A stretch of 64,000 nucleotides of DNA, from NCBI GenBank assembly GCA_004321885.1, contig SCQK01000014.1, forward strand, positions 75,646 through 139,645. Direction: 5' to 3'. The DNA comes from Patescibacteria group bacterium (lineage in GTDB: Bacteria; Patescibacteriota; Patescibacteriia; Magasanikbacterales; GWA2-37-8). The notes below the pieces were generated by a model, which was not told the DNA's origin, ran no database searches, and saw only the letters and a list, made by a program, of their open reading frames with translations. This document shows, piece by piece, positions 25,169 through 59,358 of this stretch (position 1 is its first letter; the number at the start of each line of letters is the position of its first letter). Both the position numbers and the translations under genes were made by a program.

Positions 25169-27103
25169 TTGCTTATGCCCATAAGACTTTCGCCGGAAGT
25201 CAATATACCAGAGCCGAAAATGGAACAAAAGCCAGTCTCGGAATTATCGCGATTGCGCCATGAGTTGGATTTTGCGGACAAGATAAAAGGTTTTGAGGCC
25301 GGAGTGGAAAGTCCGAATGATGGGCGGATAATGGCCGATGTTTTGGAAAGGCGCGATTGGGGGCATTTGTTCAGGGAAGCCAAGAAAGGACGAAGAATAC
25401 TCACGTTCAAGACGCCAAGCGACGAGGTTTATAATTTAAAGAAAATGAATGACAAGGTTTTGGGCCCGACCAGGGTTGATGAAATCTTTATTTTTCGGCG
25501 TAAATTAATGGATGAAGCGGCAAAGAAAATCGGGGCGAAAGTCGTCATCAATCCGGTTGTCGCCGATGTCATGATTATAGATGAAGCTCGGAAGAATATA
25601 ACCGAGGATGAATTAACAGAGATTGCGCGGGAAATTAAAGAGAAAATGACAGCCAAGATTTTGGCCCTGGCCGAGTCGGCGCAAGAGCCGGGCCGTCGCG
25701 AGGCGGCCGCGGCCTTTATAAAAGAATTTAAGAAAAGCGGGTATGAAGTCAGGTTTGGTGTGGCCGATATTGAAGGCGACGACGAAGCGGCTAAAATTTC
25801 GGCTGTCAGCCGGTCTTTGCAAGCGTGTAAAATGGCAGCCGAGGGCGAATTTGGAAGCGTGTACAATCCGGAAAAAATCCTGCAAACCTTAGAGAGGATT
25901 TCGGTTTTAACGGAAGAAATTGATAAAGCGGGCAATGAAATTACCGATGCAAATGGCTTTTCGTATTACATTATGATACAAGGAAGCATAAACATAGATG
26001 TTTTGCGCATGGCGCGCAGTTATTCCTTGAAAGTCAAAAAAGGCGACACAGACGGGGCAAAACAGCTAAGCCGTATTTTGGAGTATCTCAGCTTGATAAA
26101 TAATTTGGATAATGTCAAACCCTTTACGATGAAAGAGGTTGACGCGGGCGAGACCAAAAAACGAATAGCCCGCCATGAAGCGTTGGCAGAGAAAGTTAGA
26201 AGCGGCGATCTATCGGATGACGAGAGAGCCGAGGCGGCCAAAAGCATTGAGAGAGATGAAAAGGACGGCCGCTTCACCGCCAGGAGCATTTTTCACCAAA
26301 GGGCTTCCGCGATGAGCCATTGCCATTACATATTGATAGACGTTCGCGATATCGGAGTTGAGCAGTTAAAAAAATACGAGAGAAGGACTTTGGCTATCGC
26401 CCAGTTGAAAGACGACGCCACCAAAGTTGAGGCGTATGAGCAGGCGTCATTGGAGGCGGACGATGACACTACGGAAAAATTGCGTCGTTTTAGGGATGTC
26501 ATCGTGGAGACAGTCAGGGAAAAATTTTCTTTGTCCGAGGCGGAAGAAATTTTGGGTTTTGTGGGCGGGGACGAGCTTAACTTGGCGATTGACGGCGACA
26601 AGTTTGGCCAGGAAAAAGTGGATGAATTGATTTTTGCGATAAAAGCCAGGCTGGCGGCGGGCGGAGTGGAAGCGAGAATCCAGACAGTTGTTTCACAGGC
26701 CGAGAAAGACATTGACAGCGCGAGCGGCCAGGAAGAAAAATTACAGGCTCATTTTGAATCGCTTAAAATGGCCGAAGAAGGCGCGGATATCGCCAAAGCC
26801 GTGGAGGATTTGGAGCGGAAATTGAATTACTATTTAATTAGGGGAGAAGAATATCCGGAGGAAGGAGTGGCGCCGGAGCGGCTGAAGGACTTTTTGGGCG
26901 ACTTGAATTGGCTTTTTGAATTTCAAAATAAGAAGTTTAAGTGCGTTGATTTTAAGGTTGAAGCGCTCGGCGATGAACGGGTCAATATTGTGGGCCGCAA
27001 ATCGTCTTTGCAATATTCCAAAAAGGAAATTAAGGCAAAATTGGAGAGTTTTATAACTCCGAACGATGTGGCAAAGATGCCAAAGGAGCTGAAGATGGCG
27101 TAA
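25169..27103 (+). CDS. hypothetical protein, acidic, coiled-coil rich
   Basis: 644 aa ORF with normal codon structure and no recognisable motif. Confidence 0.45.
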   Translation: MLMPIRLSPEVNIPEPKMEQKPVSELSRLRHELDFADKIKGFEAGVESPNDGRIMADVLERRDWGHLFREAKKGRRILTFKTPSDEVYNLKKMNDKVLGPTRVDEIFIFRRKLMDEAAKKIGAKVVINPVVADVMIIDEARKNITEDELTEIAREIKEKMTAKILALAESAQEPGRREAAAAFIKEFKKSGYEVRFGVADIEGDDEAAKISAVSRSLQACKMAAEGEFGSVYNPEKILQTLERISVLTEEIDKAGNEITDANGFSYYIMIQGSINIDVLRMARSYSLKVKKGDTDGAKQLSRILEYLSLINNLDNVKPFTMKEVDAGETKKRIARHEALAEKVRSGDLSDDERAEAAKSIERDEKDGRFTARSIFHQRASAMSHCHYILIDVRDIGVEQLKKYERRTLAIAQLKDDATKVEAYEQASLEADDDTTEKLRRFRDVIVETVREKFSLSEAEEILGFVGGDELNLAIDGDKFGQEKVDELIFAIKARLAAGGVEARIQTVVSQAEKDIDSASGQEEKLQAHFESLKMAEEGADIAKAVEDLERKLNYYLIRGEEYPEEGVAPERLKDFLGDLNWLFEFQNKKFKCVDFKVEALGDERVNIVGRKSSLQYSKKEIKAKLESFITPNDVAKMPKELKMA

Positions 27104-27125
27104 AATACTTAATACAAAAATAGCC

Positions 27126-27160
27126 TTGAATTTAGGGCTATTTTTTTGCGTTTAGTTTAT
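27126..27160 (+). terminator. intrinsic terminator AAATAGCC-loop-GGCTATTTTTTT
   Basis: Hairpin plus a T-run directly after the stop at 27103. Confidence 0.6.
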
Positions 27161-27226
27161 CCACAGGCCAGCCCTTGATTTTTTTTCGGCTTTATGCTAT
27201 GTTGGTTTGTCCCTATAATGGGGAAG

Positions 27227-27825
27227 AGAGGAGACCCTACGGATGTGTGCTCGGCGATGGTTTTTTAGAATCGCCGGGCTGAAAGTCCGGCGGGTTGCAT
27301 GGGACCCGCGTTCGCGGGAACTATGCTTGGAGTTTTGTTGCAGTGAGCTTGGAAACGGAGTTTCCAGCCCACTGCTTAGCCGCAAGGTCTGGCACGGGAT
27401 TTTTGGGGATTTGCGCAAGCTTATCCTCAAGCCAGACCACATAGACACGTATACGTTGAAGCCAGTGTCTATGAGGCCGTTGGTGCCGGGCAGTTTGGCG
27501 CCTGATCCCGGGGGCGAAATGCGAGTGAGACTCGTTTTCGCCGTTGGCCCGGGCGGGGCGAGCACTGACAGGGCCGGTGCGGAAAACGCGGCCGCGTTAA
27601 TAGAATGGGAGTGGCCGCGTTGGTGGCGCAAGATGCTCTTCTTTTTTAAGGGAGAAGAGCAAGCCATGAGCTTGACGCCCGTGGATGACGTTGCCGCGGA
27701 CACAATCGCGGCAAACAAATAAAATTACGCCCGACAGAGCATCAGAGCATCGCCGGGCGAGCACATCAAGGAGAAAGGAGGAAAACCCGGCAGTTCGTCT
27801 GACCGGGTTTCGTATTTTTACTGTC
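27227..27825 (+). ncRNA. candidate structured ncRNA (RNase P RNA-like motifs; identity unconfirmed)
   Basis: A roughly 600 nt stretch at about 60% GC with no credible ORF; the two overlapping ORFs on opposite strands are W/R-rich. A TATAAT sits at 27215-27220 and an intrinsic terminator at 27796-27830. It contains CUGAAAGUCCGGCGGGUUGCAUGGGAC (compare RNase P CR-I AGGAAAGUCCGGGCUCCAUAGGGCA), GGUGCGGAAAACGCGGCC (compare GGUGCGGUAAGAGCGCACC) and ACAGAG near the 3' end (compare ACAGAA of P4). Confidence 0.35.
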
Positions 27826-27870
27826 ATTCCAGCCCGCCTTTAGTCCCAGCGAAAGCTGGGATGGAATCCA
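27822..27870. repeat. family-B element TGTCATTCC-(hairpin)-GGAATCCA
   Basis: tgtcattccagcccgcctttagtcccagcgaaagctgggatggaatcca. Confidence 0.6.
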
Positions 27871-27878
27871 TTCGCTGG

Positions 27879-29033
27879 TCATTTTTTCTCCTGCCCCAGC
27901 CAGTAGGCCGCCAGCAAAGTGGCGATGGGCACGGATAGGGCCACGCCGATACTGCCCACCAGGGTGCGCACGATTTCCGTGGCAATGGTTTCGTTGTTTA
28001 TGGCTTGGGCCCAAGAGAGCGGCGGGTCGCGTTGAATATGAAACAGCAGTAAAACAGGCAAAGACGCTCCGGCGTAGGTTAAAAACAAAGTATTGACCAA
28101 GGCGCCCAAATGCGCGTTGCCGATTTTATAGGCTGATGTAAAAACTTGCGCGGGCGACAGCGACGGATTCGCGTTTTTTATTTCCCGCACTGCTTCAATT
28201 TGCCCCACGATTACATCATCAAGCACGCCGATGGCGCCGATAAGTATGCCGGATAGTAACAGGCCCTGAAAATTTATGGCGCCCTTGTTCGCGCCGATTA
28301 AAAACATGGCCTCTTCCTGCCCCAGGCCGGAAAGCCGCGCCAGTTTCGTGAAAAGCCAAGACAGAAAAAACGTGGCCGCCAGCGAGAGCAAAACACTGAC
28401 AATGGCCAGGTGGGATTTTTTATTCCAGCCTTCGTTTAAGTAAATAATGATGGCCAGCACCGCGAAGGCGCCAAACAAGGCGATGGGCAGGGGACTGACG
28501 CCTTTCATGAGCAAGGGCACAATTATTTTGATAATTAAAAAAAAGCTGATGGCCAAGCCGACCAGGGCCAGCAGGCCTTTTTTCTTGCCCACCAAAAGAA
28601 CCACGAGCGCGAAAATGAGAGTCAGCCACAACAGGGGAGTCTGGCGCACGTAATCTACTGCGTAAAAATTTTCCGTGCCATCGCTGCGCTTGACATAATT
28701 TACCAAAACCTTGTCGTTGACTTTATAAACTCCGGACGAGAGCACATCCAAATCGGAAATGCCGCTCACATTAAATTCTTTGTCTTCCCATTTTCCCTCC
28801 AGCCCGCGCAGAAGCAGATTTTGTTGGACGGCTTGGCGGCCGTCCGGGCGCGTCGTTTCTTTTTGTTCCAGTATTTTTATTACTTTGGCTTTGAAAACCG
28901 CTTCTGTTTCATTGGCCGCATACGTACCGGCTGGCAGAAACAAAATAAAAAACAGCGTCAAAATAAAAATAATGAATCGTTTACGTCCCTCCCTTAGGGG
29001 GAGGATAGAAGGGGTATGCATGATGTTATACAA
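27879..29033 (-). CDS. YibE/F-like polytopic membrane protein
   Basis: Signal/TM start, a roughly 100 aa extracytoplasmic segment, then 7-8 TM helices, as in the YibE/F family. The TTG/ATG start region contains a family-A palindrome translated as PSILPLREGRKR. Confidence 0.5.
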   Translation of the reverse strand: MYNIMHTPSILPLREGRKRFIIFILTLFFILFLPAGTYAANETEAVFKAKVIKILEQKETTRPDGRQAVQQNLLLRGLEGKWEDKEFNVSGISDLDVLSSGVYKVNDKVLVNYVKRSDGTENFYAVDYVRQTPLLWLTLIFALVVLLVGKKKGLLALVGLAISFFLIIKIIVPLLMKGVSPLPIALFGAFAVLAIIIYLNEGWNKKSHLAIVSVLLSLAATFFLSWLFTKLARLSGLGQEEAMFLIGANKGAINFQGLLLSGILIGAIGVLDDVIVGQIEAVREIKNANPSLSPAQVFTSAYKIGNAHLGALVNTLFLTYAGASLPVLLLFHIQRDPPLSWAQAINNETIATEIVRTLVGSIGVALSVPIATLLAAYWLGQEKK

Positions 29034-29034
29034 C

Positions 29035-29067
29035 AGTCATTCCCCCGACTTAGTCGGGGGAATCCAG
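29035..29067. repeat. family-B element (CCCCCGACTTAGTCGGGGG core) abutting the start of the 27879-29033 gene
   Basis: agtcattcccccgacttagtcgggggaatccag. Confidence 0.7.
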
Positions 29068-30057: not shown

Positions 30058-30092
30058 TGTCATTCCGGTCGCCTGCGGCGGCCGGAATCCAG
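30058..30092. repeat. family-B element tgtcattccggtcgcctgcggcggccggaatccag
   Basis: The same core also occurs at 47453-47487 in the opposite orientation. Confidence 0.7.
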
Positions 30093-30139: not shown

Positions 30140-30168
30140 TTGACATTTTCGCTATTTTTTTCTATAAT
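30140..30168 (+). promoter_or_regulatory. consensus sigma-70 promoter TTGACA-17 bp-TATAAT
   Basis: ttgaca at 30140-30145 and tataat at 30163-30168. It reads into a family-B element, a tRNA-Asn 5'-half copy, the GIY-YIG gene and tRNA-Asn. Confidence 0.6.
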
Positions 30169-30172
30169 AGTT

Positions 30173-30200
30173 GTCATTCCGGACTTGATCCGGAATCCAG
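30173..30200. repeat. family-B element tgtcattccggacttgatccggaatccag placed 4 nt after the -10 box
   Basis: Read directly. Confidence 0.7.
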
Positions 30201-30218
30201 CTCCTTTGAAAATAAATT

Positions 30219-30262
30219 CCGGGGTAGCGCTCCGCCAGCCGGCGGAGGTAGCGCAGTTGGCT
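30219..30262 (+). repeat. partial copy of the tRNA-Asn 5' half (acceptor plus D-arm) with a 13 bp hairpin inserted in the D-loop
   Basis: TCCGGGGTAGCGC-tccgccAGCcggcgga-GGTAGCGCAG compared with the tRNA TCCGGGGTAGCGCAGCGGTAGCGCAG at 30502-30527. Confidence 0.65.
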
Positions 30263-30511
30263 GTGTATACTGTTTACGCTATTTACAATCAAAAAAACGA
30301 TAAAATTTATATTGGACAAACAAAAGACATGGCCGAACGATTAAGGTTGCATAATGAAAAAATCCTTCTTGGTTATACTTATAGATTTGATGGAAATTGG
30401 AAATTAATTTATAGTGTACAGATCGAGAATAGACAAAAAGCTTTACAAAGAGAGAGACAACTTAAAAGTTTTAGAGGCAGAGAATTTATAAAACAATTTA
30501 TTCCGGGGTAG
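30258..30511 (+). CDS. GIY-YIG nuclease family protein (small, YhbQ/UPF0213-like)
   Basis: VYTVYAIYNQKNDKIYIGQTKDMAERLRLHNE is the GIY-YIG core. A GTG start at 30258 lies inside the tRNA-half copy, and the stop overlaps tRNA-Asn by 10 nt. Confidence 0.6.
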
Positions 30512-30573
30512 CGCAGCGGTAGCGCAGAGGACTGTTAATCCTTTGGTCGTGGGTTCGAATCCCACCCCCGGAG
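30502..30573 (+). tRNA. tRNA-Asn(GTT)
   Basis: TCCGGGG-TA-GCGCAGCGGTAGCGC-A-GAGGA-CTGTTAA-TCCTT-TGGTC-GTGGGTTCGAATCCCAC-CCCCGGA-G. Confidence 0.85.
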
Positions 30574-31091: not shown

Positions 31092-31973
31092 ATGGTTAAA
31101 GGTCACAAAGTGAAAAATGAAAAAATCGATAAAAAAATAGCTTTTGGTTGGTATGGCGGTAAGTTTAGTCATCTTGACTGGCTTTTGCCGCTGTTGCCGG
31201 AAACCGATCATTTTTGTGAGCCGTTTGGTGGCTCTGCTGCCGTTATCATAAACAGAAATCCTTCTTTAATCGAAACATATAATGATTTAGATGGCGAGGT
31301 AGTTAATTTCTTCAGAGTATTAAGGGAACATCCTAACGATCTTATAAGACAAATTGGGCTTACTCCATTTTCGAGGGAAGAATTCAAATATGCTATTGAA
31401 CACGAAGATGATAAAAATCTTTCAGATATTGAGAGGGCTAGGTCTTTTTTTATCCGCGCAAGGCAGGTTAGGACTGGACTTGCTCAAAAAGCTACTTCTG
31501 GTAGATGGGCAAATTGTAAATTAACTTCCAGAGCCGGAATGTCAGGTGCGGTCTCGAGGTGGTTGGGAAGTGTTGACGGGCTAACAGAGATTGCGGAAAG
31601 GCTTTTACGAATACAAATTGAAAATGCTCCTGCAATTGAAGTTGTAAGGCGATATGATAGCCCACAGACCTTATTTTACTGTGATCCTCCGTATACACAT
31701 GATTCTCGAGGTGATATAAATGCCTATAAATTTGAAATGGACAGGGATGCGCATGTCGAACTGGCCGAAACACTAAAACAGGTTAAGGGGTTAGTCGCTA
31801 TATCGGGTTACGACTCTCCCCTAATGAACGAGCTGTATCAAGGATGGAAAAAAATCGCTGGGCCAGTAAAAAATGCAAATTCTATACAACAACCTAGACA
31901 AGAAATTTTATGGGTTAATTATAATATTAATGATAAATCTTTATGGAAAAAGCAGCAAAGATCCTTGATATAA
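31092..31973 (+). CDS. N6-adenine DNA methyltransferase, Dam/D12 class
   Basis: FxGxG motif EPFGGSAAV and catalytic DPPY (LFYCDPPYTHDS). Confidence 0.8.
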   Translation: MVKGHKVKNEKIDKKIAFGWYGGKFSHLDWLLPLLPETDHFCEPFGGSAAVIINRNPSLIETYNDLDGEVVNFFRVLREHPNDLIRQIGLTPFSREEFKYAIEHEDDKNLSDIERARSFFIRARQVRTGLAQKATSGRWANCKLTSRAGMSGAVSRWLGSVDGLTEIAERLLRIQIENAPAIEVVRRYDSPQTLFYCDPPYTHDSRGDINAYKFEMDRDAHVELAETLKQVKGLVAISGYDSPLMNELYQGWKKIAGPVKNANSIQQPRQEILWVNYNINDKSLWKKQQRSLI

Positions 31974-33064
31974 TTTTGAAAAAAACTAATGGGCATCTAG
32001 AAAAACCTTTTATAAAAAATAGGGAGATTTTGCGGAAAATAGAATTTATTTCTCATAATATTCAAAATCGAGCCGGCGTCCGCCTTATTATGTCTTGCTT
32101 ACTGGCGAAACTTGACGATCCAAAAGTTGATGTAAGAAAACCTTATACGGAGATTGGCAGTCGTGATAGTTTTTCGGGCAGAACATATGACGAGGCCTAT
32201 GTCGGCAGTTTTATCACTAAACATCACTTGCCGTGTAATCCAACAACAGCGTTTTTGACGCCAGCTCTACGTAATAGAAATATTGTACTTACGCCAAAAG
32301 TAAATTTAGTCGGCAGGCCACCAGAAATTTATCAATACGTTCTCGACCTCCTAGAATTAGTATTTAAAGGATTTCTTGCCCCAGCCATTCTGCTTGCGGA
32401 AATAATGCGACAACTTGTTCTTTTACGAGATGAAAATCAAAAACGTATAAAATCTTTGTTAAAGAATCTCGGGAAAAATGGTAGTGTGCCTCTTTCGGGT
32501 GAAGACATAATAAAACTTATTGAGCAACATTTAAATTGCAAAGGAGCCAGCAGACTTCCCGTACTTATCGTGGCCGCTGCTTACAACACTATTGGAAATT
32601 TCATCCAAGAAAAAGTATTACCTATCTTTTCTCACAATTCTGCAGATAAACAAACTGGTGCGCTCGGCGATATACAAATTACGTTAATTAATGACGAGAA
32701 TGTAGTAACTAGTTATGAGATGAAGATGAAGAAGGTCACAAAGGACGACATTGATATCGCTCTGCAAAAAATTTCGGGAGTTAAGTACAAAATAGATAAT
32801 TATATTTTTATAACGACGGATATAATAGATGATTCGGTAAAAGAATATGCGAAATCACTTTATGAGCAAACCGGCGGAATAGAGATAGTTGTCTTAGATT
32901 GTATTAGTTTTCTTAGGCATTTTATTCATTTATTCCACCGCTTCAGATTGCCATATCTTGAAGAGTATCAAAAGTTGGTGATGGGTGAAGCAGACAGCGC
33001 GGTCAGTCAGCCCCTTAAAGAGGCATTTCTTGCTCTTCGACAGGCAACAGAAAGCGCGAATTAA
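31943..33064 (+). CDS. putative type II restriction endonuclease (PD-(D/E)xK-like)
   Basis: Overlaps the methyltransferase gene by 31 nt. GDIQITLINDENVVTSYEMK fits a D...ExK nuclease motif. Its position in a C-M-R array supports the call. Confidence 0.45.
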   Translation: MEKAAKILDIILKKTNGHLEKPFIKNREILRKIEFISHNIQNRAGVRLIMSCLLAKLDDPKVDVRKPYTEIGSRDSFSGRTYDEAYVGSFITKHHLPCNPTTAFLTPALRNRNIVLTPKVNLVGRPPEIYQYVLDLLELVFKGFLAPAILLAEIMRQLVLLRDENQKRIKSLLKNLGKNGSVPLSGEDIIKLIEQHLNCKGASRLPVLIVAAAYNTIGNFIQEKVLPIFSHNSADKQTGALGDIQITLINDENVVTSYEMKMKKVTKDDIDIALQKISGVKYKIDNYIFITTDIIDDSVKEYAKSLYEQTGGIEIVVLDCISFLRHFIHLFHRFRLPYLEEYQKLVMGEADSAVSQPLKEAFLALRQATESAN

Positions 33065-37737: not shown

Positions 37738-37938
37738 ATGAAAGGCACCATCAAGACCATCATTGCCGAGAAGAATTTTGGCTTTATCACGCCCGAAGAC
37801 GGCGCCAAAGACATCTTCTTTCACGCCACTTCTTTAAGCGGCGTTGAATTCAGCCAGTTAAAGACCGGCGATGCCGTAAACTTTGATGTGGAAGAATCGG
37901 AAAAAGGCCCGCGCGCGGCCAATGTCACGTTAGCTTAA
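37738..37938 (+). CDS. cspA: cold-shock protein
   Basis: MKGTIKTIIAEKNFGFITPEDGAKDIFFHATSL carries RNP1/RNP2-like motifs. A long 5' UTR follows a TGgTATACT promoter. Confidence 0.9.
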   Translation: MKGTIKTIIAEKNFGFITPEDGAKDIFFHATSLSGVEFSQLKTGDAVNFDVEESEKGPRAANVTLA

Positions 37939-37950
37939 CATCAAAAAAAA

Positions 37951-37990: not shown

Positions 37991-38088
37991 AAAAATTGTG
38001 CTATACTATTTAGGGCCTGTCGCCGGATACGCTTTCGTGACGAAATGGTATTCGGCGACAGGCCCATTTATGAAGAAGAATCATTTGT

Positions 38089-38928
38089 ATGAAAAAAATC
38101 ATTGTCTCTTTGCTCGTGCTGGGAATCGCGGTTTTGGGTTTTGTGTTGTTCAGGGAATTTAGAAAAAATTTCGGGCGCGTGGCCGGGCCCGCGGGACAGA
38201 CCGGCGAAACCGCCGGGCCCGAGGCAGGGGCCTACAAAATTTCCGACGCCGCGCTTAAAGAAGACAGCGCGCGTTATGTTATCATCGCCAAGTATCCGCG
38301 CCTCTTGGGCTTGTCGCCTGCGGCCGACAAAAATTTCAATGACGCGATGTTGGCCTTAATCAATCAGAATGTCAGCGATTTTAAGAAAAATGTGGCCGAA
38401 ACGCCCGACACGCAGGTAAACAGCAGTCTGGAAACCAACTTTGACATCGTGGAAGAAAATGAAAATTTTGTCAGCATTCTTTTGATTGTTGATTCGTACG
38501 TGGCAGGCGCGGCTCATCCCGCGCGCCGTCTGGCCAGCTTTAATTTTGATTTGGAAAAAGGCGCGGTGTTTGGGCTCAAAGATGTTTTCAAATCCGGCGC
38601 GCCATATTTGGAACGGCTGTCGCAATTCGCGCGCGCCGAGCTTTTAGAGTCCAACAAACAGGAGCCGTTTACCGACGAAGCCACCATCAACGCCGGCACC
38701 GAGCCGAAAGAGGAAAACTTTCAGGTGATAAATTTTTCCGCGGCTGGCATTGCGATAGTTTTTAATGAATATCAGGTGGCGGCCTACGCGGCCGGGCCGC
38801 AAATGGTGGAGATTGATTACGAAAGCGTGAAGGATATTTTGAACGAAGAAGGCCCGCTGGCGCTGTTTTTAGCCAAGACCGAGGAGGAAGCGGAGCCGTC
38901 GCTGGATTCAGGGTCAAGCCCGGAATGA
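38089..38928 (+). CDS. hypothetical secreted/anchored protein (possibly DUF3298/DUF4163-like)
   Basis: An N-terminal TM helix followed by a roughly 250 aa domain. Confidence 0.35.
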   Translation: MKKIIVSLLVLGIAVLGFVLFREFRKNFGRVAGPAGQTGETAGPEAGAYKISDAALKEDSARYVIIAKYPRLLGLSPAADKNFNDAMLALINQNVSDFKKNVAETPDTQVNSSLETNFDIVEENENFVSILLIVDSYVAGAAHPARRLASFNFDLEKGAVFGLKDVFKSGAPYLERLSQFARAELLESNKQEPFTDEATINAGTEPKEENFQVINFSAAGIAIVFNEYQVAAYAAGPQMVEIDYESVKDILNEEGPLALFLAKTEEEAEPSLDSGSSPE

Positions 38929-38955
38929 CAATAAAAATATTTTTTAATAAATAAA

Positions 38956-38988
38956 CTGGATTTTCCCGACTTAGTCGGGGGAATGACA
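38956..38988. repeat. family-B element (inverted orientation) ctggattttcccgacttagtcgggggaatgaca, ending 5 nt before the ATG of the M4 peptidase gene
   Basis: Read directly. Confidence 0.7.
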
Positions 38989-41870: not shown

Positions 41871-41981
41871 CGAGTAAAAAAACAAGGCCTTGGGATAATC
41901 CCCAAGGCCTTTTGGTTGTGCCTGCCCGTGGCAGGCAGGGGCCGCCCCGCGTGAAGAAGCGGGGCGGCCATGAGGCGCTGG

Positions 41982-42674
41982 TCAGGTACAACCCGGGATC
42001 GGGTTGTTTTTGCACCCGATGCTGGGAATGCACTCGTTGGTGGTGCAGGCATTCCCATCATCGCAGAAGTCCGGACAAGAGCCGCAACTTCCGGCGATAC
42101 TGGTCCAGGTGCAAAATCCGTTGACGCACCCGACTTGGGTACACCCCACGTAGTAGTTGACGCATGGGGTCGTCGGGAGCGAACAAGCGACCTTGGCGCA
42201 AGCGCCTGACACACAGTGCAGCCCCTTGTTACAGAAGCTGTTGTTGCCGCTACACTTGCCGCTGGGCAGGCAGTTGTAGCACCGCGCGCCCTCGGAGCCC
42301 TGGGCCGGCTGGACATCGGGCTTGACCACGATGCTGTCCGGCGGCGGTTTCTTGTCTGGCGCCGGCTTGTCCGGCAGTGGCTTAGTGTCGTGCGTCGGCT
42401 TGGTGTCTGGCGTGCCCTTGTCCGGGCCAAGGTCCGCGCCCAGCTCGCGGCCTGCTTCACGCTTCGGCGTGAACGCGTCAGCCGCCATGTCGGGCATGCC
42501 GCCCTCCACGCTGGCTGCGCTGTCTTGCCAGCTGTCAGCGACAGCGGCGTCAATGCCGCTGTCCAGCCGGTTCTTGTCGGCCTGGGCGTCCACCGACGCC
42601 GCCGGGTTGTAGCCAAAGAGCAGGTGGCACCCGCCGGCGCCCAGCGCCAGCATTGCGATGAAAAGAGCCTTCAT
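41982..42674 (-). CDS. cysteine-rich secreted protein / putative lipoprotein in a high-GC patch
   Basis: Signal peptide MKALFIAMLALGAGGC, a P/K/D-rich linker (DTKPTHDTKPLPDKPAPDKKPPPD) and a C-terminal domain with at least 20 Cys. Chosen over the overlapping R-rich ORFs on the other frames. Confidence 0.4.
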   Translation of the reverse strand: MKALFIAMLALGAGGCHLLFGYNPAASVDAQADKNRLDSGIDAAVADSWQDSAASVEGGMPDMAADAFTPKREAGRELGADLGPDKGTPDTKPTHDTKPLPDKPAPDKKPPPDSIVVKPDVQPAQGSEGARCYNCLPSGKCSGNNSFCNKGLHCVSGACAKVACSLPTTPCVNYYVGCTQVGCVNGFCTWTSIAGSCGSCPDFCDDGNACTTNECIPSIGCKNNPIPGCT

Positions 42675-42873
42675 GTTCTCTCCTTTTCTTGAAGCGCCCT
42701 ATCCATAAGGACGCTTGTTTGTTTTTGTCAAGTTTTGCCTATTTTGGCCAAAACTCGGGCGTATCATATCTTGCGCCTGGCCAAAAAACAAGCAGAACCT
42801 ATTATTTAATACACAAAAAGCGAGAGTTGTCAACCTTGCGCCAATATGGTAAATATGGTAAAATTGTTGGCGA

Positions 42874-42902
42874 TGGATTCCGGCTCGGGGGCCGGAATGA
42901 CA
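42874..42902. repeat. family-B element (inverted orientation) tggattccggctcgggggccggaatgaca overlapping the start of the PAP2 gene
   Basis: Read directly. The ATG at 42897 lies inside the GGAATGACA arm. Confidence 0.65.
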
Positions 42903-47452: not shown

Positions 47453-47487
47453 CTGGATTCCGGTCGCCTGCGACGACCGGAATGACA
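47453..47487. repeat. family-B element (inverted) ctggattccggtcgcctgcgacgaccggaatgaca
   Basis: Same core as the element at 30058-30092. Confidence 0.7.
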
Positions 47488-51216: not shown

Positions 51217-51244
51217 TGTCATTCCCGCGAAAGCGGGAATCCAG
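51217..51244. repeat. family-B element tgtcattcccgcgaaagcgggaatccag, directly after a TATAAT at 51211-51216 and 6 nt before the ATG at 51250
   Basis: Read directly. Confidence 0.7.
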
Positions 51245-52879: not shown

Positions 52880-52913
52880 CTGGATTCCCCCGTACTTAGT
52901 CGGGGGAATGACA
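52880..52913. repeat. family-B element (inverted) ctggattcccccgtacttagtcgggggaatgaca ending 12 nt before the hrcA ATG
   Basis: Read directly. Confidence 0.7.
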
Positions 52914-56868: not shown

Positions 56869-57969
56869 ATGGCAAAAGATTACTATAAAATACTGGGTAT
56901 TGATAAAAACGCCTCGCCCGAGGAAATAAAAAAAGCTTTCAAAAAGCTGGCTTTGGAGCACCATCCGGACAGGCCGGGCGGCAATGAGGCGAAGTTCAAG
57001 GAAATAAACGAGGCCTATCAGGTGCTGGGCGACGCGGAAAAACGCCAGCGTTACGACCAGTTTGGCGCGGACTTTGAACAGCAAGGCGGTTTTGGCGGCG
57101 CCAGCTGGGAGGATTTTATGCGGGCCGCGCGCGGGCAAAACGGTTTTAGCAACGGCGGATTTTCATTTAACTTCGGGGACTTGGATTTGGGGGATATTTT
57201 CGGCGATGTGTTTGGCGCGGGCCGTTCACGCCGAGGAGGACGTGAGCGCGGCCAGGACATTCAAATTGACGCGCAAATTGATTTCAAAGAAGCGGCTTTT
57301 GGCGTGGAAAAAACTTTTTCTTTGCGCAAGAAAAGCCAGTGCGACGTGTGCGGCGGCAGTGGCGCCGAGCCGGGCAGTAAAATGGAAACCTGCAAGACCT
57401 GCGGGGGACAGGGGCAGGTGGTACGCCAGCAAAGCAGTTTTTTTGGCATGGTGCAGACAGTGGGCGCCTGTCCCGATTGCGGCGGCCGCGGGCAAAAGCC
57501 GGGTAAAAAATGCAAGCATTGCGGCGGCTCGGGCGCGCTGGCTAAAACCAGCGATATAAATGTGAAAATTCCGGCCGGCATTGACGATGGCCAGGCCATA
57601 CGGTTGGCGGGTTATGGCGAGGCGGGCGAACATGGCGGGCAGGCCGGTGATTTGTTTGTGCGGGTGCGCGTAAAGCCGCTCAAAGGTTTTGAACGCGACA
57701 GCGATGACGTCTACACCGAGAGCGAGATTAGTTTTGTTCAGGCCGCGCTAGGCGATAATATCAGCGTGGAAACATTGGACGGTTTGCTCACGATTGTGGT
57801 GCCGGCTGGCACCGAGCACGGGCAAATGATACGACTCAAAGGCCGCGGGATAGAACGAATAAACCGCGGGGGCCGGGGAGACCATTTCGTAAAAATAAAA
57901 ATCCGCGTGCCGAAAAAATTAAGCCGCTCGGCGCGGAAGTTGTTAGATGATTTAAGAGGGGAATTGTAA
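56869..57969 (+). CDS. dnaJ: molecular chaperone DnaJ
   Basis: J domain [32 protein letters not shown], a G/F-rich region, and four CxxCxGxG zinc-finger repeats. Confidence 0.9.
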
Positions 57970-57977
57970 TAATCGCT

Positions 57978-58113
57978 GGCTCCATAGTTGCGAAGCACTA
58001 TGGAGCTCAAATGTTGGTCAGCAATTCGGCTCCACAGCCCCGACTGGGTCGGGGACTATGGAGCCAGCCATAGGATAACACTGGATTCCCCCGACTAAGT
58101 CGGGGGAATGACA
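57978..58113. repeat. array of three palindromic elements (a C-type with alternative core at 57978-58006, a C-type at 58028-58065, and a B-type at 58081-58113) filling the dnaJ / ECF sigma intergenic region
   Basis: Read directly. The B-type ends 2 nt before the ATG at 58116. Confidence 0.7.
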
Positions 58114-58115
58114 AC

Positions 58116-58662: not shown

Positions 58663-59358
58663 ATGAATCTCAAAGTTAGGTACAATTTATGGAAAGAACA
58701 GCGCCGGATGTCGCCGAATTTTAAGTTTAAGCGCGCGCTTTTGGCGCGTGTGCTGGATTCTCGCCTGCGCGGGAATGACAGCGAGGACTGGCGCGGCAAA
58801 CACCCTATTAGATTTTTTGCCTATTTCACCCACTTGCGCTGGGGCGTGGTTATGGCCAGTGTTTTGTTGTTGGCTTTGCTGGCCACCGGCGCATACGCCT
58901 ACAACAGCGACGAAGTTACCGAGGGTACTGTTTTGTATCCGGTAAAACAAAAGCTGGAAGAAGTGGAGGAACTGACCAAGCGCACGCCCGAAGCCAAGGC
59001 GGATTTTTATCTGAAACAGATTAAGCGGCGCGAAGCCGAGGAGGCGGCGCTGGAGCGCCGGCGCGCCAGGATTGAAAAAGCTAAAAATCGGCTGGACATG
59101 CTGGAAAAAAACATAGAAGCGTCCGAGGAAAAAGCCGAGCGCGTGCAGACCCAGCTTGAAGAAGTAAATAAAATATTGAGCGGCAAAAACAGCGCGCAGA
59201 ACAAAGAATTGCGCCAGCGCGTGCAGGCGATTTTGGAAGCCAAAAAAATAAAAAGAGAGCGCGAATTGGACAAAAAAGTGGAAATGATACGGCGGAAAGC
59301 GGAAATGATTGACAAGTTATACGCCAGCTTGGAAGAGGAAATGGAAAAAGAAGAATAA
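58663..59358 (+). CDS. putative anti-sigma factor (single TM plus long coiled coil)
   Basis: Lies immediately downstream of the ECF sigma gene, with a TM helix (WGVVMASVLLLALLATGAYA) and an E/K-rich coiled coil. A B-like palindrome at 58747-58775 is in frame. Confidence 0.4.
   Translation: MNLKVRYNLWKEQRRMSPNFKFKRALLARVLDSRLRGNDSEDWRGKHPIRFFAYFTHLRWGVVMASVLLLALLATGAYAYNSDEVTEGTVLYPVKQKLEEVEELTKRTPEAKADFYLKQIKRREAEEAALERRRARIEKAKNRLDMLEKNIEASEEKAERVQTQLEEVNKILSGKNSAQNKELRQRVQAILEAKKIKRERELDKKVEMIRRKAEMIDKLYASLEEEMEKEE

What the first reader, a model, noticed from the sequence alone, without database searches (positions are those of the whole stretch)
27227..27825. About 600 nt GC-rich non-coding transcript unit: probable structured RNA (RNase P RNA-like motifs)
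There is no plausible ORF on either strand; the overlapping ORFs are W/R-rich. A TATAAT sits at 27215 and a clean intrinsic terminator at 27796-27830. Internal motifs CUGAAAGUCCGGCGGGUUGCAUGGGAC, GGUGCGGAAAACGCGGCC, a GGUGCC loop and ACAGAG near the 3' end resemble RNase P RNA CR-I, CR-II and P4. However, the length is above the usual 330-420 nt and I could not pair a convincing P1/P4. It could instead be another large ncRNA.
Basis: partly seen in the sequence, partly recalled or inferred. Interest (0 to 1): 0.55.

Follow-up and report, generated by a model that had tools for sequence, protein, structure and literature searches.

The report
Orphan 600-nt structured RNA, not RNase P
A roughly 600-base stretch between two genes of an uncultivated Patescibacteria (CPR) bacterium looks like a stand-alone gene for a very tightly folded non-coding RNA; it matches no known RNA family, RNase P included, and no relative was found in public data, so its function is still a guess.

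Summary
Window 27226-27819 (+) is a gene-free, G-rich stretch and the most structured 600 nt in the window. Its fold z-score against dinucleotide shuffles is -14.8; 40 background windows average -1.4, with a minimum of -6.75. An 18-bp helix (27242-59 / 27748-67) encloses about ten well-defined hairpins. A TATAAT lies upstream and a hairpin plus U-tract downstream.

The two long ORFs across it (159 aa on +, 173 aa on -) have spurious-type codon usage and no Pfam or PHROG match. Neither 5.8 billion protein clusters nor 1.84 billion representatives hold a homologue.

The RNase P reading is not supported:
- No RNase P model scores even about 10 bits, on the whole region or on sub-pieces. In the same mode, the first 100 nt of E. 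coli rnpB scores 51.6 bits.
- Only the CR-I-like 10-mer GAAAGUCCGG is present.
- CR-V (ACAGAA...GGCUUA) and the canonical P4 with its bulged U are missing.
- tmRNA, SRP, OLE, ROOL, GOLLD and intron models also miss.

I found no homologue by synteny, by DNA patterns or by using the ORFs as protein queries, so covariation could not be tested. The best reading is an orphan large structured ncRNA of an undescribed family. A scaffold (RNP) role is inferred, not shown.

The parts
27214..27219 (+). TATAAT, a possible -10 box. The -35 is poor (TTTATG at 17 nt, 3 of 6).
   Evidence: Sequence. The promoter scan did not call it. Position only, so weak evidence.
27226..27241 (+). Purine-rich 5' leader (GAAGAGAGGAGACCCUACG region). 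The transcript start is inferred, not mapped.
   Evidence: Sequence. The start is inferred as 7 nt after the TATAAT.
27242..27259 (+). 5' strand of closing helix P1 (GAUGUGUGCUCGGCGAUG).
   Evidence: MFE and base-pair probabilities of 0.97-1.00. Also inverted repeat I2.
27271..27293 (+). Hairpin A (UCGCCGGGCU-GAA-AGUCCGGCGG). It contains the RNase P CR-I-like 10-mer GAAAGUCCGG at 27281-27290.
   Evidence: This is the only exact copy of the 10-mer in the window.
27297..27326 (+). Hairpin B.
   Evidence: pair probability 1.00.
27328..27339 (+). 5' strand of long-range helix Px (UGG.GUUUUGUU). It pairs with 27733-27744, which includes the ACAGAG.
   Evidence: pair probability 0.74-0.97.
27340..27375 (+). 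Hairpin C, with a GGA triloop.
   Evidence: Domain z = -5.4.
27380..27582 (+). Four-way-junction domain. Helix Py (CCGCA / UGCGG) encloses hairpin D (27386-27438, GCAA loop), hairpin E (27440-27473, 16-nt loop) and branched arm F (27475-27575).
   Evidence: Domain z = -5.3.
27585..27621 (+). Hairpin G: an 11-bp perfect stem with a 15-nt loop.
   Evidence: pair probability 0.99. z = -4.7.
27625..27731 (+). Domain Pz. Helix GGCG / CGCC encloses hairpins H (27634-27661), I (27664-27684) and J (27691-27714), followed by the A-rich junction ACAAAUAAAAUUA.
   Evidence: Domain z = -4.6.
27733..27744 (+). 3' strand of Px (GACAGAGC.UCA).
27748..27767 (+). 3' strand of P1 (CAUCGCCGGGC-GA-GCACAUC). Its AUCGCCGGGC repeats 27270-27279, which allows an alternative P3-like hairpin plus P4-like pseudoknot.
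   Evidence: (D2, I2, I3). The alternative fold is about 4-10 kcal/mol less stable.
27768..27785 (+). Purine-rich 3' tail, AAGGAGAAAGGAGGAAAA.
   Evidence: Sequence.
27786..27819 (+). Terminator-like hairpin (27786-27807) plus the U-rich tract UUUCGUAUUUUU.
   Evidence: pair probability 1.00. The simple scan did not call it because of a bulged A.

Best explanation
Window 27226-27819 (+) is most likely an independent gene for a highly structured non-coding RNA of about 590 nt. Its 526-nt core (27242-27767) is closed by an 18-bp helix. The host is a sparsely sampled Patescibacteria lineage, and the RNA belongs to no described family.

Shown:
- It is non-coding by composition and by absence of homologues.
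- It is the most structured segment of the window.
- The + strand is the strand that folds.
- It has no downstream gene on its own strand, because the next gene converges on it. That rules out a 5' leader or riboswitch.

Inferred:
- It is transcribed from the TATAAT at 27214 and ends at the 27786-27819 hairpin and U-tract.
- It works in trans as a folded scaffold or ribonucleoprotein component, as OLE, ROOL and GOLLD RNAs do, rather than as a base-pairing sRNA. The reasons are that about two thirds of its bases are paired, it has a closed multi-domain architecture, and several large loops (15-16 nt) and an A-rich junction remain available for protein or tertiary contacts.

The specific partner and activity are unknown.
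For: - Folding: z = -12.35. In my scan the target has z = -14.8, against a background mean of -1.4 and minimum of -6.75. It ranks 1 of 848 GC-corrected windows.
- The helices are well defined, with pair probabilities mostly 0.9-1.0, and every domain is separately significant.
- Strand: MFE is -284 on + versus -246 on -. There are 24 G-U pairs, and G is 33.5% against C 23.6%.
- Non-coding: codon usage and position-2 GC; no domain; only a self hit among 5.8e9 clusters and 1.84e9 representatives.
- Genes in this window mostly lack a Shine-Dalgarno sequence, so the GAGGAG before ATG 27243 means little.
- Context: the upstream gene has its own terminator at 27116-27145, and the downstream YibE/F gene is convergent.
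- The sequence is identical in a second assembly.
- No Rfam family matches, and ARAGORN finds no tmRNA.
Against: - No homologue was found anywhere, so there is no covariation. Conservation, the usual proof that a structure is functional, is missing.
- Expression is untested.
- The promoter has no -35 box, and the scans did not call the terminator.
- Many stems are long and perfect, which also fits a young, selfish or repeat-derived hairpin cluster.
- The genome carries a separate family of palindromic repeats, with one copy abutting the 3' end.
- One of five single-sequence AlphaFold models of the 159-aa ORF reached pTM 0.53.
- The scaffold or RNP mechanism is an analogy only.
Confidence: 0.55

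Rival explanations
1. It is a highly divergent, expanded RNase P RNA. In this reading 27249-58 / 27270-79 forms P3, UGAAA is J3/4, GUCCGGCG (27285-92) pairs with CGCCGGGC (27751-58) as P4, and GAUGUGU / GCACAUC forms P1. The RNA would cleave pre-tRNA 5' leaders.
For: - The exact CR-I-like 10-mer GAAAGUCCGG occurs once in the window, inside this RNA.
- An 8-bp P4-like pairing of -17.6 kcal/mol is possible, in the right order relative to a P3-like hairpin, an ACAGAG and a P1 3' strand.
- The internal four-way junction with a branched third arm loosely resembles P7-P8-P9-P10/12.
- Lui et al. 2021 (PMC8172020) report that 10 of 35 circular CPR genomes have RNase P RNAs below Rfam cut-offs, with extended or missing helices.
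- No RNase P RNA was found elsewhere in the 64-kb window. This is uninformative given the size of the genome.
Against: - No RNase P model reaches about 10 bits on the whole region or either half. A 100-nt fragment of E. coli rnpB scores 51.6 bits in the same mode.
- CR-V is absent even with 2 mismatches allowed.
- The candidate P4 lacks the bulged U and the two A-U pairs, and 11 nt separate ACAGAG from it.
- There is no P2.
- No CR-II/III-type A-rich junctions appear in arm F, by inspection.
- The nested fold, a long P1 plus hairpin A, is 4-10 kcal/mol more stable.
- The core is 526 nt, against 330-420 nt for typical RNase P RNAs.
- The 18-mer around the CR-I-like motif is not conserved in any of 185,579 species genomes beyond chance.
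Confidence: 0.08
2. It is a non-functional or selfish structured element: a decayed mobile element or ORF-less intron remnant, or a lineage-specific hairpin cluster filling the gap between convergent genes. It would be transcribed, if at all, without a cellular role.
For: - It is an orphan. No relative turned up next to the closest YibE/F homologues, in viral, metagenome or genome collections, or in phages and plasmids.
- It contains internal direct repeats. AUCGCCGGGC occurs twice, and two 12-13-nt repeats share the same 199-nt offset, which suggests recent duplication.
- Many stems are perfect.
- The neighbouring 644-aa gene is also nearly an orphan.
- The genome tolerates palindromic repeats.
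Against: - There are no terminal inverted repeats, no target-site duplication and no second copy in the window.
- No intron or ribozyme model hits.
- The genome is densely packed, so a 700-nt useless spacer would be unusual.
- The hairpins differ from one another and from the repeat family.
- Promoter-like and terminator-like signals bracket the folded core exactly.
Confidence: 0.2
3. It is a real orphan protein gene, the 159-aa ORF 27243-27722 (+). NCBI annotates part of it as hypothetical protein EPN28_04285. On this reading the RNA structure is incidental.
For: - The ORF is open for 159 codons.
- GAGGAG lies 9 nt upstream of the ATG.
- Gene callers call it.
- The best of five AlphaFold models has pLDDT 56 and pTM 0.53.
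Against: - Codon log-likelihood is 0.018, within the spurious-ORF range.
- GC at codon position 2 is +3 SD and A at position 2 is -2.3 SD.
- There is no homologue in two very large protein sets and no domain.
- The other four models have pLDDT 29-39, and there is no fold match, TM <= 0.27.
- NCBI and Logan call different starts, giving 103 aa versus 159 aa.
- The start codon lies inside an 18-bp helix of a -265 kcal/mol fold.
- Genes here rarely use a Shine-Dalgarno sequence.
- A 173-aa ORF on the opposite strand shows that the lack of stop codons is compositional.
Confidence: 0.06
4. It is the RNA partner of the upstream orphan 644-aa protein (25169-27103). That protein carries a GGDEF-like palm signature (IDVRDIGV...QL and VGGDELxLAID), so the pair would form a two-component module, for example a nucleotidyltransferase guided or regulated by a structured RNA.
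For: - The two are adjacent on the same strand and both are nearly orphans.
- The palm-like motifs are conserved against the single 28-30% identical homologue.
Against: - The only homologue's locus has no RNA beside it. The gene is followed 14 nt later by an FMN reductase gene, and nhmmer finds nothing.
- The protein gene has its own terminator, and the RNA has its own -10 box.
- The protein has no credible match to Pfam, PADLOC, NCBIfam or PDB.
- Its AlphaFold model is unreliable, pLDDT 52.
Confidence: 0.05

Closest known systems
Bacterial RNase P RNA, class A (Rfam RF00010), including the diverged CPR forms described by Lui et al. 2021 (PMC8172020)
   Same: It is a stand-alone, highly structured RNA gene. 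It contains GAAAGUCCGG, identical to the core of CR-I, and an ACAGAG near the 3' end. A P3-hairpin plus P4-like long-range pairing is geometrically possible. CPR RNase P RNAs are known to carry helix expansions and to escape Rfam thresholds.
   Different: There is no covariance-model match at all, under about 10 bits against 51.6 bits for a 100-nt E. coli fragment. CR-V (GGCUUA) is missing. The P4-like helix has no bulged U and no A-U pairs. P2 and the CR-II/III junctions are absent. The core is 526 nt. The nested alternative fold is more stable.
OLE RNA (ornate, large, extremophilic; about 600 nt; the Rfam OLE model)
   Same: Similar length, a closed multi-domain 'ornate' secondary structure, a stand-alone gene, and a membrane-protein gene next door (YibE/F here, oapA for OLE). 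OLE works as a membrane-associated RNP scaffold, which is the mechanism I infer by analogy.
   Different: The OLE model does not match. The phylum differs: OLE occurs in anaerobic and extremophilic Firmicutes. No oapA/B/C genes are present. OLE has many invariant nucleotides defined from hundreds of members, whereas this RNA has one member.
ROOL and GOLLD RNAs (about 580 and 800 nt; form homo-oligomeric cages, PMC12286853)
   Same: Size class, an elaborate fold, and unknown biochemical function.
   Different: The Rfam models do not match. There is no prophage or tRNA-cluster context and no match in viral collections. Oligomerisation is untested.

Membership tests
Bacterial RNase P RNA (RF00010/RF00011 and clan CL00002) | A significant covariance-model match to an RNase P model. 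| tested here: not met
   No hit at gathering thresholds. No hit at E<=10 on 27050-27950, 27225-27420 or 27540-27790. Control: E. coli rnpB nt 1-100 scores 51.6 bits.
Bacterial RNase P RNA (RF00010/RF00011 and clan CL00002) | CR-I / P4 5' strand (GAGGAAAGUCCGGGC). | tested here: met
   GAAAGUCCGG is exact at 27281-27290 and is the only exact copy in the window. The flanks differ: CU before the 10-mer where the consensus has GG, and CG after it where the consensus has GC.
Bacterial RNase P RNA (RF00010/RF00011 and clan CL00002) | CR-V / J2/4 plus the P4 3' strand (ACAGAANNNGGCUUA). | tested here: not met
   The pattern ACAGARNNNGGCTTA with up to 2 mismatches has no match within 27200-27850. Only ACAGAG is present, at 27734-39.
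Bacterial RNase P RNA (RF00010/RF00011 and clan CL00002) | A P4 pseudoknot with the conserved bulged U and the A-U pairs at its base. | tested here: not met
   The best partner, CGCCGGGC (27751-58), gives 8 bp (-17.6 kcal/mol). In it U27286 pairs with G instead of bulging, and A27283/A27284 face A and G. Covariation cannot be tested with one sequence.
Bacterial RNase P RNA (RF00010/RF00011 and clan CL00002) | Specificity-domain conserved junctions (CR-II/CR-III, J11/12 and J12/13). | tested here: inconclusive
   By inspection of the predicted arm F (27475-27575), the junctions are AUCC and GA, not A-rich. This rests on a single-sequence fold and my recollection of the consensus.
Bacterial RNase P RNA (RF00010/RF00011 and clan CL00002) | It is the only RNase P RNA in the genome, and it cleaves pre-tRNA. 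| not testable with these tools
   Only 64 kb of the genome is available. Attempts to read beyond the window failed.
OLE / ROOL / GOLLD large ncRNAs | A covariance-model match to the family consensus. | tested here: not met
   No hit at gathering thresholds or at E<=10.
tmRNA | A tRNA-like domain plus a tag reading frame. | tested here: not met
   ARAGORN finds only six tRNAs in the window. There is no Rfam tmRNA hit.
Group I / group II introns and small ribozymes | A covariance-model match to the catalytic core. | tested here: not met
   No hit. There are no flanking exons of a split gene.
Protein-coding gene | Codon usage like the host's genes, and homologues or a domain. | tested here: not met
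   composition; no domain, only a self hit; no confident fold, no PDB match.

The most novel reading that the evidence does not exclude
This is the founding member of an undescribed class of about 600-nt 'ornate' RNAs in a deep, poorly sampled branch of Patescibacteria. It may be an RNase P-derived paralogue that kept the CR-I strand but acquired a new core.
Probability: 0.3. Interest if true: 0.65.

Novelty: new member of a known kind. Interest (0 to 1): 0.42.

Why it matters
Only a handful of large structured bacterial RNAs with unknown function are known (OLE, ROOL, GOLLD, raiA, HEARO). Each has revealed unexpected biology once studied, and none is known from the Candidate Phyla Radiation, whose small genomes leave little room for spare sequence. 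A 600-nt RNA kept in such a genome would be a good target for structure determination and for asking what RNA-based functions these reduced cells retain.

There is also a practical point. Public databases currently annotate this locus as a hypothetical protein. It also shows that a 10-nt RNase P motif is not enough to call RNase P. With a single sequence and no expression data, the case remains a candidate.

Tried and rejected
- **Rfam at four settings**: only tRNAs elsewhere and chance-level hits here.
- **Synteny:**
  - The upstream 644-aa protein has one distant homologue, and its locus lacks the RNA.
  - The closest YibE/F relatives are only about 60% identical (Magasanikbacteria, Falkowbacteria, Buchananbacteria). 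Three inspected loci have different downstream genes and no nhmmer match.
  - The YibE/F scan of species genomes found no close relative.
- **'ORF trick':** I used the spurious ORFs as protein queries to catch mis-called homologous RNAs. Results were negative in the 5.8e9-cluster database, by phmmer over 1.84e9 representatives, in viral contigs and in JGI metagenomes.
- **DNA pattern:** TGAAAGTCCGGCGGGTTG in 185,579 species genomes gave 20 hits, against about 17 expected by chance. None is from CPR and none shows extended similarity.
- **blastn:** no match in phages or plasmids, and no paralogue in the window.
- **Reading beyond the window to look for a canonical rnpB:** this failed, yielding only a short Logan contig.
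- **Loop-loop pseudoknot search:** nothing better than 5-6 weak pairs.
- **Replication origin:** rejected. The perfect DnaA box at 27157-65 is isolated.
- **Second GC-rich 'gene-free' region at 41871-42845:** rejected. It encodes a lipoprotein.
- **AlphaFold of the 644-aa neighbour:** too poor to use, pLDDT 52.
- **Literature searches:** no described large ncRNA from Patescibacteria.

Full report
**What is there.** The 776-nt gap between a 644-aa ORF (25169-27103, +) and a convergent YibE/F membrane-protein gene (27879-29033, -) is one of the largest gene-free stretches in a densely packed window. The upstream gene ends with its own hairpin and T-run terminator at 27116-27145. A TATAAT lies at 27214-27219. 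A G-rich segment follows (G 33.5%, C 23.6%, overall GC about 57%, against 49% for the window). It ends in a hairpin at 27786-27807 followed by UUUCGUAUUUUU up to 27819. The promoter lacks a usable -35 box, and the simple consensus scan called neither the promoter nor the terminator, so both are positional hints rather than evidence.

**Is it more than chance?**
- ViennaRNA gives -289 kcal/mol for 27222-27830 on the + strand, z = -12.35 against dinucleotide shuffles. The - strand gives -249 kcal/mol, z = -7.6.
- Shuffles can overstate significance, so I scored 40 evenly spaced 600-nt windows the same way. The background z has mean -1.4, SD 1.9 and minimum -6.75. The target has z = -14.8 and lies 63 kcal/mol below its shuffles, whereas the background lies 8.8 +/- 11.8 below.
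- In a GC-regressed scan of all 848 windows on both strands, the target ranks first.
- The fold is well determined, with most helices at pair probabilities of 0.9-1.0, and each domain is separately significant at z = -4.5 to -5.4.
- 24 of the 200 pairs are G-U. Together with the 40 kcal/mol strand difference, this identifies + as the strand that folds.

**Architecture.**
- An 18-bp helix P1 (27242-59 / 27748-67) closes the core.
- Hairpins A and B follow P1.
- A long-range helix Px (27328-39 / 27733-44) encloses the rest: hairpin C, a four-way junction Py (hairpins D and E plus branched arm F), hairpin G, and a three-hairpin domain Pz (H, I, J).
- Purine-rich tails flank P1 on both sides.

**Is it coding?** Two long ORFs cover the region, which is why a Logan gene call (159 aa) and NCBI (103 aa, 'hypothetical protein EPN28_04285, Patescibacteria group bacterium') annotate a protein here. 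The evidence is against a protein:
- Per-codon log-likelihoods are 0.018 for the + ORF and -0.12 for the - ORF. Real genes score 0.18-0.63, with one outlier at 0.04, and known antisense ORFs score -0.26 to 0.12.
- GC at codon position 2 is +3.0 and +4.8 SD relative to real genes.
- There are no Pfam or PHROG domains.
- The 159-aa ORF matches only itself among 5.8 billion clusters and, by exhaustive phmmer, among 1.84 billion representatives.
- The GAGGAG 9 nt upstream of the ATG carries little weight, because genes in this window mostly have no Shine-Dalgarno sequence.
- A single-sequence AlphaFold run gave one model at pLDDT 56 and pTM 0.53 and four at 29-39, with no PDB fold match (TM <= 0.27). 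This is a small caveat and not support for coding.

**Is it RNase P?** A missing Rfam hit is not decisive on its own. Lui et al. (PMC8172020) found that 10 of 35 circular CPR genomes have RNase P RNAs below Rfam cut-offs, with expanded or missing helices, so I tested the idea at several levels.
- No RNase P model appears at E<=10 on the whole region or on the two halves. On those short pieces, E<=10 admits hits down to about 10 bits.
- As calibration, the first 100 nt of E. coli rnpB, retrieved from a RefSeq genome, score 51.6 bits (E = 9e-16) in the same truncated mode.
- The CR-I-like 10-mer GAAAGUCCGG is real and unique in the window.
- The CR-V signature has no match in the region even with two mismatches.
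- Because AUCGCCGGGC occurs twice (27270-79 and 27749-58), an RNase-P-like alternative can be drawn: a P3-like hairpin 27249-58 / 27270-79, J3/4 UGAAA, and a P4-like helix 27285-92 / 27751-58. That helix has no bulged U and no A-U pairs, lies 11 nt from ACAGAG, and there is no P2. The alternative is about 4-10 kcal/mol less stable than the nested fold.
- The 18-mer spanning the motif occurs in 185,579 species genomes only at the chance rate, never in CPR and never with flanking similarity.

I put the RNase P reading at about 8%. tmRNA (ARAGORN), SRP, 6S, OLE, ROOL, GOLLD, HEARO, introns and ribozymes are likewise unmatched.

**Relatives.** None were found.
- The organism is isolated. The closest YibE/F proteins are about 60% identical, from Magasanikbacteria, Falkowbacteria and Buchananbacteria.
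- Their loci have different downstream genes and no similarity to the RNA.
- The upstream 644-aa protein has a single 28-30% identical homologue, and its locus lacks the RNA.
- Using the spurious ORFs as degenerate multi-site probes found nothing in viral contigs, JGI metagenomes or the protein databases.
- blastn against phages and plasmids was empty, and there is no paralogue in the window.
- The only other copy comes from a Logan assembly of run SRR8426592 and is identical.

Covariation, the decisive test of a functional structure, therefore could not be run. This is the main weakness of any functional claim.

**Most likely explanation.** The region is a stand-alone gene for a roughly 590-nt structured ncRNA of an undescribed family (confidence 0.55).
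- Shown: it is non-coding, its fold is exceptional and strand-specific, and it is closed and multi-domain.
- Also shown: it has no downstream gene on its own strand, so it is not a leader or riboswitch.
- Inferred: its transcription boundaries, and a trans-acting scaffold or RNP role by analogy with OLE, ROOL and GOLLD.
- Rivals: a selfish or decaying hairpin-rich element (0.20; favoured by orphan status, internal repeats and perfect stems), divergent RNase P RNA (0.08), an orphan protein (0.06), and a partner RNA for the neighbouring GGDEF-like protein (0.05).

**Novelty and score.** As a sequence family it is new. As a kind, a large ornate bacterial ncRNA of unknown function, it has precedents. 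I could not find a described large ncRNA of this type in Patescibacteria in the literature searches. With one sequence, no covariation and no expression data, it is a good candidate rather than a discovery. I score interest at 0.42.

Noticed in passing
window 27822-27871(-), 29035-29067(-), 30058-30092(-), 30172-30200(-), 38902-38930(+), 38956-38988(+), 42873-42902(+), 47453-47487(+), 51217-51244(-), 52880-52913(+), 58081-58113(+), 58753-58780(+): This is a family of short palindromic repeats of the form (C/A)TGGATTCC-[variable GC-rich stem-loop whose two halves change together]-GGAATGAC(A/T). There are 12 copies in 64 kb. The exact word GGAATGACA occurs 11 times against 0.32 expected. Several copies sit 2-14 nt upstream of start codons (38994, 58116, YibE/F), and others follow genes. 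One copy abuts the 3' end of the RNA. No Rfam family matches. Whether it is REP-like, a 5'-UTR element or a terminator is unknown.
   Followed up: partly
window 25169-27103 (+): This is an orphan 644-aa protein with only one distant homologue among 5.8 billion clusters. Two motifs are conserved between the pair and resemble a GGDEF or Cas10-type palm domain: C.Y...DV.D.GV.QL...E.RT and VGGDELxLAID. An N-terminal K..ND...GP...D motif is also conserved. There is no credible Pfam, PADLOC, NCBIfam or PDB sequence match, and the AlphaFold model is too poor (pLDDT 52) for a fold search.
   Followed up: partly
window 27553-27592 vs 27752-27791; 27267-27279 vs 27746-27758: The RNA contains internal direct repeats. 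Two 12-13-nt matches share the same 199-nt offset. AUCGCCGGGC occurs at both ends of the core, giving two mutually exclusive pairing schemes. This could reflect a duplication or a designed conformational switch.
   Followed up: partly
window, upstream of most start codons (e.g. 179, 5854, 13936, 34004, 49146): Most genes in the window have AT-rich upstream regions with no Shine-Dalgarno sequence. The clear exception is the GC-rich lipoprotein gene 41982-42674 (-), which has AAAGGAGAGAAC before its ATG. That gene has 63-69% GC against 49% for the window and looks horizontally acquired.
   Followed up: partly
window 57970-58115 (+): The intergenic region between dnaJ and a sigma-factor gene holds three consecutive strong hairpins. 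The 600-nt window starting at 57901 has z = -6.75, the most structured of the 40 background windows. The last hairpin is a copy of the repeat family above.
   Followed up: no
window 37739-37939 (+) and 38013-38066 (+): A small cold-shock-protein gene (about 66 aa, with promoter and terminator) sits in an apparent gap. It is followed by a perfect 18-bp hairpin in the 5' UTR of the gene that starts at 38089.
   Followed up: no
window 30140-30573 (+): A GIY-YIG nuclease ORF (30140-30511) overlaps the start of an intact tRNA-Asn gene (30502-30573). A 2026 paper (PMC13011429) reports group I introns in tRNA-Asn genes of Patescibacteria. A D12 methyltransferase and a SacI-like restriction enzyme follow at 31092-33064.
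   Followed up: no
window 27157-27165 (+): A perfect DnaA box (TTATCCACA) lies between the upstream terminator and the RNA promoter. It is isolated: there are 3 perfect boxes in the window and no cluster, so it does not mark an origin.
   Followed up: yes
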